Source: a virus (taxonomy: Duplodnaviria; Heunggongvirae; Uroviricota; Caudoviricetes). Taken from it: DNA of 5,462 bases. Made by a program: the position numbers. This document shows positions 1 through 3,000 of the stretch, piece by piece. The stretch lies in the IMG/VR virus record IMGVR_UViG_2695420651_000012. One strand, given 5' to 3'. The stretch's first letter is position 1. Each line of letters begins with the position of its first letter.

Positions 1-3000
1 CCTGGCACGGCTGGGACGGAAGTCGCTGTCGTTCTCAAAATCGGTGGAGCTGCATGACAAAGTCATCGGGCATTATCTGAACATAAAACACTATCAATAA
101 GTTGGAGTCATTACCGCTTTCCTCTGTAGGTTATCAACACGTCCTGCGCCTCTAAAATGATGGGCCGCTTTTCCGGCAACGGACCATCCCCTTCACATAA
201 CCCGGCAGCAACATCCATGAAAAACTGCTTCGCCTGCTTTTTCGCCTCAGCTTCGTAAAACTCCAGCGTGGCTCCTTCAGTACGGTCAAGACTAATCGCC
301 ACATCTGGCAACAACAGTGACGGATACCCACCAATTTCCGGTGCCACAGTAACAGTAATCTTATCCGGGTAATTATTTATCCCTTTAACAACCAGTTCGT
401 ATTTTTTCTTCATCGCTTTACTCTCCCCGCGCCGCCTTACGACGGTCCTCTCTGATTTTGAAATACAGGTTAGTCAGATACGTCAGCAGGCCAAACAGCA
501 GACTCCCCAGCACACCTATCGCCACCCACTGGGACGGAGAGACTTTGTCCAGCAGCTGCAGTAACCAGTATCCCGTCCCCACCGCTGACGTGGTGTATGA
601 CACACCCGTTGTGATTTTTTCCATCTGGTACATACCCCGTCTCCCGCAATCCGGAAGCTCACAACAACAGGAGGGGCATCAGCTCACACCGACAGCCCCT
701 GCGTATGGTTACATCATCATTTCGCCGCCAGGCTGAGGCTCACTGCTACCGTCAGGCTGAGACACAACGCCATCTGAAACAGCACTGTCACCCGCGCCGT
801 CTTCAGGCTCAGGAGCAGCCGGTCCCCCCAGCAGCTCATCCAGAATGGCATCCACTTCAGCATCAAGACGCGCCTCAAGATTCTGGCGGAGTTGCTGTTT
901 CAGTGCGCTTCTGACTTCTTCAGAGCGCAGGACGTCCTTCACTGCTTCAGCAGTGACCAGAGATTTTATTTCTGACATGGGATTTTCTCGTTGAAAGGTG
1001 TTGTTAAGAAAGTTGCTACGAAATGAGAGGCTCTTCGGGTTTTGTTCCGGCTGACTGGCTGGCGCTGATTTTTTCCGCCGCCGCGGCATCAATCTTTTTG
1101 CGTATATAGTTCCGGATAACCTTATACCCGCCACTTACCAGATATAACGTGCACACCACCGTGCAGAAATACAATAAAATAAGCTGTACAAATCTCATTA
1201 TCCCTCCCGGTTATTGATATGGTGTTGACATCGTTAATACCTGTTGGTTAAAAAAGTGTCCTGCATGTTTTGCTTTGGATATAACGACATTTGCCGCCGG
1301 TTCTGGCTCCTTGTTTTCCCTGCCCCGGCGGCCTTTTTTTCCTGCTTACGGGTTATTCACTTCCACTGTTATACTTTCAATCAGCACCGGATATGTCGCA
1401 CCGCTAGTGATATCGGTCACGCGCAATTTGTCTGCCGTAAACGTGCCGACCGGTGACTGTGACAGCATGAACGGCGTCCCGTCCTTACCATCAATGACCG
1501 GCGTCACCTCAATACTGTTGTTACCGGCAAAACGGAAGCCCAGCGTATGCCATTCGTTATCAAATGCGCCGAATGACCCCAGCTTCGTGTTCTGACCAGC
1601 ATTTCCCTTGTGGTACATCACATTAAGGTCTGTGGCATCGCTCTGTACGTAAAACGACGCCAGCAGGTTATGACCGGCATTACCTTCCAGTGTGACGCCC
1701 TGAGGCAGTGAAGAAACCGGCCAGTACAGCGCCAGTGCGTACTGATTAGCTGTCAGTGTGCCATCAACTTTAAAACGACAACTGATAAGCCCGCCCTTCT
1801 CCAGCAGGTCTGCGCCATTACCGGCATCATGCTGCATAAACCACGAGGAACTTCCTGTCTGTTTGGTCCACCTCAGCGCCTTACCTCCTGCAGCACCTGC
1901 ATCATCAACTACCAATGCACGCCCTCCTTCAGCTCCCCATCCCTGCGGATTCAGTAAACCACCTGACTCTGTTGCACGGTAATAAAGCAGCGTTGTCACT
2001 GATTTCCCGTCCGTTGACGGTGTTGATGGTGTGTCCGGTGACGGCTTCTCATCCGGCGGCATCACAACCTGTTCCCCACCCACCAGTTCAGCCGTCCTGC
2101 ATGGAGAAGAATCGCTGAGGCAAGACGGTCAGAAATAATCCCCCTGCGTGCCCATGAGCTGAAATGGCTCGCACGGTCTGCTGACGTCCAGTTTGCCGAC
2201 GTCCGGGAGGCCGCACCGTAATATCCTGATGCCGGAATATCCGGGTCTTCTTCCGGTTTGTTCGTCGGGACATTTGCTCCGTTCTCATCGGTCATGAACG
2301 GCACAAAGTGAATATTCTTTTCCGTTTTGTTTTTGTAACTGCCGTACACCGTCTGGTAAGTGGATTCGCTCTTCTGCTTCCAGAAATAAGTTGTGTCTCC
2401 ACATATCCAGGGAACACCGTCAGCAGAACCACCAGCGCACTGTCCCACCATATCTGCAAGGTCCGTACGATATTGTTCCACTACTTCTGTAAAACGGGCT
2501 GTGTGATTTGCTGGCGTTCCGTCAAAGTCAAATTCCCCCTGCATCCACACCACGGCAAGCAGCACATTTTTCGGGTTCTTTGCCAGCGCGGCTTTTGTAC
2601 GACCGATGAGATCCTTATACAGCGGCCTGCCCACACCCCAGCGGGTAGAACTCTCTGAGGCACCGGTCACGTCACTGTATGTTCCATCTGCCCCGGTGGT
2701 GAAAGCTGAACCACCACGGCAGCACGGAACCAGAAGAATACCCGCATTCGCCGGTATAAACGGCAGCAGCTTTTTGGCAATATGCAGCCCCTGCCCCACG
2801 GTTCCGTACTGACCTTTCGACAGGTCAGCTTTCGGATGATTAAGACGGCTCATGTCCTGTACATCATGCAGACAGTGGTCTGCCGGAATAATGTCGTTAT
2901 ATTTACAGGGAGCGCCATCCGGCGTCACTGTGCTGCGACGAGCCAGTTGCTTTATACGCGGGTCAGGACGGTCATATGTCTGCGGCAGAGGAAGCCCCTC

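What the first reader, a model, noticed from the sequence alone, without database searches (positions are those of the whole stretch)
2062..2128. nanS-p split by a frameshift at a C4/G4 run, leaving the esterase domain intact
The 405-aa and 245-aa ORFs are consecutive parts of one NanS-p-type protein in different frames. The only interval where both frames are open is 2065-2128, and it contains a homopolymer (plus CCCC at 2074-2077). One extra base there would restore a single ORF of about 644 aa. The upstream ORF still encodes the whole DUF1737 + SGNH/SASA esterase unit, which is comparable in extent to chromosomal NanS, so it could still be an active esterase lacking only the C-terminal domain. 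Alternatively the frameshift is a sequencing artefact. Any of these matters for annotating this virulence-associated moron.
Basis: partly seen in the sequence, partly recalled or inferred. Interest (0 to 1): 0.5.

Follow-up and report, generated by a model that had tools for sequence, protein, structure and literature searches.

The report
Frameshift-split prophage esterase gene nanS-p

Summary
The split is real. On the minus strand, a 405-aa ORF (2062-3279; DUF1737 + SASA esterase) and a 245-aa ORF (1346-2083; DUF6645) are two pieces of one NanS-p gene. Both frames are open only in 2065-2128.

The lesion is not at the C4/G4 run (2074-2077), which is identical in intact alleles. Against the intact 645-aa allele (Sakai Sp6 ECs_1527, WP_000023170.1; also O55:H7 RM12579), the window lacks 4 nt. 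CAGGACGGACGGCTG has become CAGGACGGCTG, the loss of one GGAC unit at 2092-2097.

It is not a sequencing artefact. The same junction occurs in six NCBI assemblies from two accession series, one ENA metagenome scaffold and one Logan read assembly. It is absent from all 315 complete E. coli genomes that carry this segment.

The shift falls in the Pro/Ser/Thr-rich linker. Residues 1-396 are native and cover the whole NanS (PDB 3PT5) fold, including Ser87 and His372. The orphaned ORF holds the whole lectin-like domain (PDB 6YP6).

The best reading is a recent, single-origin slipped-strand deletion in one copy of a multi-copy prophage gene. The truncated esterase is plausibly still active, but that is untested. 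Interest is low.

The parts
2062..3279 (-). nanS-p 5' fragment (ORF A, 405 aa). Residues 1-396 are native; the 9-aa frameshift tail is LNWWVGNRL; the stop TGA is at 2064..2062.
3130..3270 (-). DUF1737 N-terminal domain (aa 4-50). In phage phi24B this domain is the capsid-binding domain of the homologous esterase gp84.
   Evidence: PF08410, E = 1.9e-15; role from bioRxiv 10.64898/2026.04.10.717836
2107..3063 (-). NanS-like SGNH/SASA esterase domain (aa 73-391), complete. Ser87 codon (GQSN motif) at 3021..3019; His372 codon CAT at 2166..2164.
   Evidence: 3PT5 chain 16-331 of 337 aligned, E = 2.5e-119; codons read
2092..2097 (-). Site of the lesion: residual GGACGG (plus strand CCGTCC). Intact alleles have GGACGGACGG here, so one 4-nt unit is missing. 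Its exact position within the repeat is ambiguous.
2074..2077 (-). It is unchanged relative to intact alleles and is not the lesion.
2065..2128 (-). Interval in which both the ORF A frame and the ORF B frame are open.
   Evidence: read
2000..2106 (-). Interdomain linker (intact residues 392-428, LHAGRTAELVGGEQVVMPPDEKPSPDTPSTPSTDGKS). It lies between the end of the 3PT5-aligned region and the start of the 6YP6-aligned region, and the frameshift falls at its start.
1346..2083 (-). nanS-p 3' fragment (ORF B, 245 aa from GTG 2083). It is identical to intact residues 401-645 and is in the -1 frame relative to ORF A.
1352..1999 (-). Lectin-like jelly-roll C-terminal domain (DUF6645), complete.
   Evidence: 6YP6 'NanS-p', residues 429-644 aligned, E = 9.5e-97; PF20350, E = 1.2e-71
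2060..2064 (-). TGATG: the ORF A stop (2064..2062) overlaps an in-frame ATG of ORF B (2062..2060, Met8). This is a possible site of termination-reinitiation, by inference only.
   Evidence: anti-SD pairing -6.5 kcal/mol, against -7.4 for nanS-p's own start
3374..3392 (-). Terminator-like hairpin followed by T8, about 95 nt upstream of the nanS-p start. It suggests a late-operon leader terminator.

Best explanation
What it is: the window is a whole 5.4-kb draft contig (CYCH01000084.1, reverse-complemented). It covers the Q-to-lysis region of a lambdoid prophage that is practically identical to the Sp6-type prophage of E. coli O55:H7 and O157:H7.

Shown:
- Its nanS-p gene encodes a prophage 9-O-acetyl-sialate esterase with the architecture DUF1737 - SGNH/SASA esterase - lectin-like DUF6645.
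- The gene carries a real, heritable 4-nt deletion of one unit of a (GGAC)2 micro-repeat at the codon 396/397 boundary.
- The deletion shifts the frame by -1 at the start of the Pro/Ser/Thr-rich interdomain linker.
- Translation from the normal start therefore gives a 405-aa protein: the capsid-binding DUF1737 domain, the complete NanS-like esterase domain and 9 foreign residues.
- The complete lectin-like domain is left as an orphan ORF.
- The allele has a single origin and is recent.

Inferred:
- The deletion arose by replication slippage between the two tandem units.
- The 405-aa product is probably still a folded, active esterase that has lost its carbohydrate-binding module. Chromosomal NanS works without such a module, and the phi24B homologue naturally sheds it by proteolysis.
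- The orphan domain is expressed weakly or not at all.
- Because O55:H7/O157:H7-type genomes carry several nanS-p copies, the event is best seen as neutral decay of one copy in a prophage that is itself degrading.
For: - One indel only. Window versus Sakai Sp6: 16 SNPs plus one 4-nt gap in 5349 nt. Window versus O55:H7 RM12579: one synonymous SNP plus the same 4-nt gap in 5347 nt.
- Sequence of the lesion. Intact: ATGCA GGAC GGAC GGCTG. Window: ATGCA GGAC GGCTG.
- The allele is real. The 405-aa and 245-aa proteins are in public collections. The same junction string is present in six NCBI assemblies from two accession series (CYAH/CYAE/CYGQ/CYCH and AIAD/AIAH). It is also in an ENA metagenome scaffold and a Logan assembly of run ERR6124698.
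- Single origin. All deletion-bearing copies are identical across nanS-p and differ only in flanking modules.
- Rare. None of the 315 complete genomes holding the 101-nt junction segment has the deletion. In IMG/VR, 1 contig has the deleted junction and 23 have the intact one. JGI metagenomes gave 0.
- Domain boundaries. 3PT5 aligns to residues 73-391 and 6YP6 to 429-644. The linker is conserved among paralogues.
- Catalytic residues. Ser87 and His372 align with 3PT5 chain residues 30 and 312. These are Ser19 and His301 of native NanS after an 11-residue tag, the dyad I recall from the NanS structure paper (own knowledge).
- A stable fragment without the C-terminal domain exists naturally. phi24B gp84 is processed to a ~35-kDa esterase-containing fragment lacking the C-terminal domain.
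- Redundancy. The closest O55:H7 genomes hold 7 nanS-p-like places.
- Decay context. IS1 is inserted in ydfR in this contig. The TerB gene is a pseudogene in the reference genomes. The same paralogue has been disrupted independently by a rusA-to-nanS-p deletion in TW14359 and by a G352* nonsense mutation in SRR1981445.
Against: - No activity, expression or stability data exist for the 405-aa product. A review of Franke et al. 2020 says the lectin-like domain 'could assist esterase activity'. The phi24B preprint describes both domains as contributing to activity. Activity on mucin-bound substrates could therefore be reduced.
- The 9-aa hydrophobic tail (LNWWVGNRL) could affect solubility.
- Slippage as the origin of the deletion is inferred from the repeat structure, not observed.
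- Neither half has acquired any further mutation. That is expected for a recent event, but it gives no power to separate neutrality from selection.
- I did not see reads. Independence of the assemblies rests on different accession series, projects and assemblers.
Confidence: 0.85

Rival explanations
1. Functional gene fission. The deletion at the linker yields two working polypeptides. One is a DUF1737-esterase. The other is a free lectin-like DUF6645 protein, translated by termination-reinitiation at the TGATG overlap or from GTG 2083. This would mimic, at the genetic level, the proteolytic separation of the domains seen in phi24B gp84.
For: - The break falls at the start of the interdomain linker, and both domains are complete.
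- The ORF A stop overlaps an in-frame ATG of ORF B (TGATG, 2060-2064).
- Anti-SD pairing upstream of the ORF B starts (-6.5 to -6.7 kcal/mol) is similar to that of real genes in the window (-7.4 for nanS-p and for holin).
- Natural processing between these domains is reported.
- The allele has persisted through flank recombination without further damage.
Against: - The G-rich pairing is weak evidence, and no expression data exist.
- The allele is rare and young, so its intactness is uninformative.
- The same paralogue is destroyed in other lineages in ways that keep no esterase. That fits neutral decay better than selection for a split.
- No natural stand-alone arrangement appeared among the 120 best homologues.
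Confidence: 0.1
2. Sequencing or assembly artefact: the gene is intact in the living strain.
For: The window is a short draft contig, and frameshifts in drafts are often errors. None of the 315 complete E. coli genomes that carry this segment shows the deletion.
Against: - The identical 4-nt deletion appears in six NCBI assemblies from two accession series, one ENA metagenome scaffold and one Logan assembly made from raw reads by a different pipeline.
- Loss of a 4-nt unit is not the typical homopolymer-length error.
- The homopolymer itself is unchanged.
Confidence: 0.03
3. Recoding: the two ORFs are joined during translation by programmed -1 ribosomal frameshifting, or the repeat is a phase-variable switch.
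For: ORF B is in the -1 frame relative to ORF A, with a 64-nt overlap window. The lesion lies in a tandem repeat.
Against: - No X XXY YYZ slippery heptamer exists in the ORF A frame within 2065-2128.
- The repeat has only two copies in all 315 complete genomes that carry this segment and one copy here. It is far too short for a contingency locus, and with one copy left slippage cannot restore it.
- The intact single-ORF form is the norm.
Confidence: 0.02

Closest known systems
NanS-p of prophage Sp6 / CP-933-type prophages of E. coli O157:H7 and O55:H7 (ECs_1527, WP_000023170.1; '9-O-acetyl-N-acetylneuraminic acid deacetylase')
   Same: It has the same gene in the same prophage context (rusA-Q-TerB fragment-DUF3927-nanS-p-DUF1378-DUF826-holin-ydfR). 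DNA identity is 99.6-99.9% over 5.3 kb. The protein is identical over residues 1-396 and 401-645.
   Different: Here 4 nt (one GGAC unit) are missing at codons 396/397, so the 645-aa protein is split into 405-aa and 245-aa ORFs.
vb_24B_21 / gp84 of Stx phage phi24B (C-terminal domain structure PDB 6YP6)
   Same: It has the same three-domain architecture. The C-terminal domain aligns over 216 residues at E = 9.5e-97. gp84 is a capsid-decorating protein bound through DUF1737, and it is proteolytically cut between the esterase and the jelly-roll domain.
   Different: In phi24B the domains are separated after translation by proteolysis. Here they are separated by a frameshift, so the C-terminal domain is never attached. 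The prophage here is annotated as lambda-like (Sp6), not as a phi24B-type podovirus. Capsid decoration was not examined.
Chromosomal NanS (YjhS) of E. coli, PDB 3PT5
   Same: The esterase domain aligns over essentially the whole chain (E = 2.5e-119), including the GQSN serine and the block-V histidine. NanS naturally lacks a C-terminal lectin domain, as the 405-aa product does.
   Different: NanS has no DUF1737 domain. By my own knowledge it is a host-encoded enzyme of the nan regulon, not a phage late gene.
Other disrupted alleles of the same paralogue (O157:H7 TW14359/EC4115-type 5' deletion; SRR1981445-type G352* nonsense)
   Same: They are independent inactivations of the same prophage gene.
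   Different: Those lesions remove or truncate the esterase domain itself. The one here spares it.

Membership tests
NanS-p (prophage-borne sialate 9-O-acetylesterase) | N-terminal DUF1737 domain | tested here: met
   PF08410, E = 1.9e-15, aa 4-50 of ORF A
NanS-p (prophage-borne sialate 9-O-acetylesterase) | Complete SGNH/SASA esterase domain homologous to NanS, with the nucleophile Ser and the His | tested here: met
   3PT5 chain 16-331 of 337 aligns to aa 73-391, E = 2.5e-119. Ser87 (GQSN) and His372 (RASH) are conserved and lie upstream of the frameshift. PF03629, E = 1.4e-11.
NanS-p (prophage-borne sialate 9-O-acetylesterase) | C-terminal lectin-like jelly-roll domain (DUF6645) in the same polypeptide | tested here: not met
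   The domain is present and complete (6YP6, E = 9.5e-97; PF20350, E = 1.2e-71). But it is encoded in the -1 frame as a separate ORF after a 4-nt deletion. The locus is therefore a disrupted member, not an intact one.
NanS-p (prophage-borne sialate 9-O-acetylesterase) | Location in the late region of a lambdoid prophage between antiterminator Q and holin S | tested here: met
   Gene order in the window and in annotated homologous loci
NanS-p (prophage-borne sialate 9-O-acetylesterase) | Neu5,9Ac2 esterase activity | not testable with these tools
   It needs the expressed protein and an enzyme assay.
Programmed -1 ribosomal frameshift site | Slippery heptamer X XXY YYZ in the upstream frame within the overlap | tested here: not met
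   None in 2065-2128
Phase-variable simple-sequence contingency locus | Repeat tract with many units whose number varies among strains | tested here: not met
   Two units in all 315 complete genomes that carry this segment, and one unit here

The most novel reading that the evidence does not exclude
The 4-nt deletion is a functional gene fission. It would give a capsid-tethered (DUF1737) esterase without its lectin module. It would also give a separately translated free lectin-like DUF6645 protein, made by termination-reinitiation at the TGATG overlap. This would be a genetic equivalent of the proteolytic maturation reported for phi24B gp84, and it would be retained because it changes substrate targeting.
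Probability: 0.08. Interest if true: 0.35.

Novelty: already known. Interest (0 to 1): 0.12.

Why it matters
The main value is for annotation.
- The two CDSs, deposited as two 'YjhS' proteins, should be annotated as one nanS-p gene disrupted by a 4-nt deletion.
- The lesion is genuine, so it should not be 'corrected' as a homopolymer error.
- It gives a naturally occurring NanS-p allele without the C-terminal domain. That allele could be used to ask what the lectin-like domain contributes to de-O-acetylation of mucin sialic acids or to virion decoration.
- It adds one more example of piecemeal decay of the redundant nanS-p copies in O55:H7/O157:H7-type prophages.

Nothing here would surprise a specialist.

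Tried and rejected
- Homopolymer frameshift at 2074-2077: rejected, because the run is identical in intact alleles.
- Sequencing artefact: rejected on eight independent data sets.
- Natural two-gene arrangement: rejected.
- Programmed frameshifting and phase variation: rejected.
- A seemingly striking coincidence. Logan SRR1981445 carries a nonsense codon in the esterase domain plus an ATG exactly at the ORF B start. This turned out to be a nonsense mutation on a pre-existing V401M polymorphism. V401M is also present in the intact gene of strain 7784, and Met is common at that position in paralogues. It is not evidence for selection of a stand-alone C-terminal domain.
- Identifying the source strains from accession prefixes in the literature found nothing useful.
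- Saile 2016, Feuerbaum 2018 and Franke 2020 are not held in the library. Statements about them come only from what other papers say.
- A literature search for nanS-p frameshifts or pseudogenes found nothing specific.
- I did not run a structure prediction. Two solved structures already cover both domains at E < 1e-96.

Full report
**1. The observation**

All the relevant genes lie on the minus strand. The mechanical ORF list gives a 405-aa ORF at 2062..3279 and a 245-aa ORF at 1346..2083.

Pfam assigns DUF1737 (aa 4-50) and SASA (aa 83-275) to the first ORF, and DUF6645 to the second.

Reading the sequence, the ORF A stop TGA is at 2064..2062. The nearest upstream stop in the ORF B frame is TGA at 2131..2129.

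CCCC is at 2074-2077. Those parts of the observation are correct.

**2. Where the lesion really is**

A megablast of the gene against complete E. coli genomes gave full-length matches at 99.8% identity. Each match spans 2025 bases for a 2021-base query.

I fetched the Sakai Sp6 locus, where ECs_1527 is annotated as a 645-aa '9-O-acetyl-N-acetylneuraminic acid deacetylase'. I also fetched the EDL933 locus (WP_000023170.1).

The alignment of the whole window to Sakai shows a single indel in 5349 nt. The intact sequence is ATGCA GGAC GGAC GGCTGAACTGGTGGGTGGGGAACAGG. The window has ATGCA GGAC GGCTGAACTGGTGGGTGGGGAACAGG.

Against O55:H7 RM12579, the closest complete genome (99.9%), the only differences in 5347 nt are one synonymous SNP at window 2839 and this same 4-nt gap.

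- The G4/C4 run is unchanged.
- The lesion is the loss of one unit of a (GGAC)2 micro-repeat.
- The residual GGACGG lies at 2097..2092.
- The ancestral gene has 1938 nt and encodes 645 aa.

**3. Real or artefact**

The exact 405-aa and 245-aa sequences are already in the public protein collection, both named 'YjhS'.

The window is the entire contig CYCH01000084.1 of GCA_001285725.1, reverse-complemented.

The same junction string was found in these data sets:
- six NCBI assemblies belonging to two accession series, CYAH/CYAE/CYGQ/CYCH and AIAD/AIAH;
- an ENA metagenome scaffold, ERZ28625409;
- a Logan assembly of run ERR6124698.

All these copies are identical across nanS-p. They differ only in flanking modules: L003 has a different Q/rusA module, and L012 has a different holin/ydfR end. 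That indicates one origin followed by flank recombination.

The allele is rare:
- None of the 315 complete genomes that hold the 101-nt junction segment lacks the 4 nt.
- IMG/VR has 1 contig with the deleted junction (the 8995-nt CYAH contig) against 23 with the intact one.
- JGI metagenomes have none.
- The intact protein is recorded on at least 1000 contigs.

I conclude that the deletion is genuine, heritable, recent and lineage-specific.

**4. What it does to the protein**

ORF A is identical to the intact protein through residue 396 and then reads LNWWVGNRL-stop. ORF B is identical to residues 401-645.

Two solved structures define the domains:
- Chromosomal NanS (3PT5) aligns over chain residues 16-331 of 337 to residues 73-391 (E = 2.5e-119).
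- The crystallised C-terminal domain of a NanS-p (6YP6) aligns to residues 429-644 (E = 9.5e-97).

The frameshift therefore sits at the start of the 37-residue linker LHAGRTAELVGGEQVVMPPDEKPSPDTPSTPSTDGKS. This linker is conserved among paralogues.

Ser87 (GQSN) and His372 (RASH) align with chain residues 30 and 312 of 3PT5. After an 11-residue tag these are Ser19 and His301 of NanS, the catalytic dyad as I recall it from the NanS structure paper (own knowledge). Both lie upstream of the break.

**5. Likely consequences (inference)**

Chromosomal NanS is an active esterase without any C-terminal module (the 3PT5 depositors' name for it; reviews).

The C-terminal domain of NanS-p is described as a lectin-like jelly-roll. 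[quoted passage not shown]

A 2026 preprint on phage phi24B reports the following:
- The homologous gp84 is a capsid-decorating protein anchored through DUF1737.
- It is proteolytically processed between the esterase and the C-terminal domain.
- A ~35-kDa esterase-containing fragment without the C-terminal domain accumulates on stored virions.

Together these make a folded, active, C-terminally truncated esterase plausible. Targeting to glycan substrates would probably be impaired.

The orphan ORF B could in principle be translated. The ORF A stop overlaps an in-frame ATG (TGATG, 2060-2064). Anti-Shine-Dalgarno pairing upstream of the candidate starts (-6.5 to -6.7 kcal/mol) is in the range of real genes in the window. 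This is weak evidence, and I give it about 10%.

There is no slippery heptamer for -1 frameshifting. A two-unit repeat reduced to one unit is not a reversible switch.

**6. Context**

The gene lies in the late region of a lambdoid prophage. The order is rusA, Q, a TerB-like fragment, DUF3927, nanS-p, DUF1378, DUF826, holin and ydfR.

A terminator-like hairpin with a T8 tail (3392..3374) lies just upstream of the gene, as does an Rfam STnc100 match (3420..3586).

Expression of nanS-p rises under phage-inducing conditions in stx2a strains (abstract of PMC10462455).

The prophage is decaying:
- The first 115 nt of the window are the end of an IS1A-like element inserted in ydfR.
- TerB is annotated as a pseudogene with an internal stop in the reference genomes.

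The same paralogue has been disrupted independently in other lineages:
- In TW14359-type O157:H7, a deletion runs from rusA into nanS-p.
- In SRR1981445, there is a G352* nonsense codon.

The closest O55:H7 genomes contain 7 nanS-p-like places, so the loss is buffered.

**7. Comparison with what is known, and verdict**

The locus is a disrupted member of the known NanS-p family. Three defining features are met: DUF1737, a complete esterase domain, and the prophage late-region location. The fourth, a C-terminal domain in the same polypeptide, is not met because of the 4-nt deletion.

All 120 best homologues listed have an uninterrupted multi-domain architecture. They are mostly 640-652 aa, and 119 of them carry all three domains. 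The split is therefore derived.

This is ordinary slipped-strand gene decay in a redundant prophage gene. It is useful for correct annotation and as a natural truncation allele, but it is not surprising. The artefact alternative does not hold.

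Noticed in passing
window 1-115 (+): The terminal 115 nt of an IS1A-like insertion sequence, beginning GGTAATGACTCC... on the minus strand. It interrupts the ydfR/DUF1327 gene, which is 100 aa here and 114 aa in Sakai and RM12579. It explains why the contig ends here. It matches more than 9000 E. coli records at up to 100% identity. Some other carriers of the nanS-p deletion (L003, L004, L005, L012) lack this insertion.
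   Followed up: yes
window 3420-3586 (-), with hairpin + T8 at 3374-3392 (-): An Rfam STnc100 sRNA match (99.6 bits; gathering score 47). It is followed by a strong terminator-like hairpin immediately upstream of nanS-p. Together they look like a short late-promoter leader transcript (pR'-tR' type) sitting where Stx phages carry the leader upstream of stx.
   Followed up: no
window 3758-3904 (-): A 48-aa TerB-like ORF. In EDL933 and RM12579 the corresponding 363-nt gene is annotated as a TerB-family pseudogene with an internal stop. This is another decayed gene between Q and nanS-p.
   Followed up: partly
L009 (O157:H7 TW14359) 2279-3809: In TW14359/EC4115/SS17-type O157:H7, the same prophage has a deletion fusing a truncated rusA to a nanS-p that lacks its N-terminus. 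Q, the TerB fragment and DUF3927 are gone. This is an independent inactivation of the same paralogue.
   Followed up: partly
L013 (Logan SRR1981445) 332-334 and 479-481: Another allele of the same gene has an intact (GGAC)2 repeat but a GGA>TGA nonsense at codon 352, upstream of the catalytic His. It also has GTG>ATG at codon 401. The latter is a pre-existing V401M polymorphism, also seen in the intact gene of strain 7784. Six similar places were not shown by the tool.
   Followed up: yes
L003 1-1640 versus window 4358-5462: One carrier of the deletion allele (CYAH01000057.1) has a different antiterminator Q module (PF06323, 229 aa) from the window's (PF03589, 273 aa). So there has been mosaic recombination just upstream of an otherwise identical nanS-p region.
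   Followed up: partly
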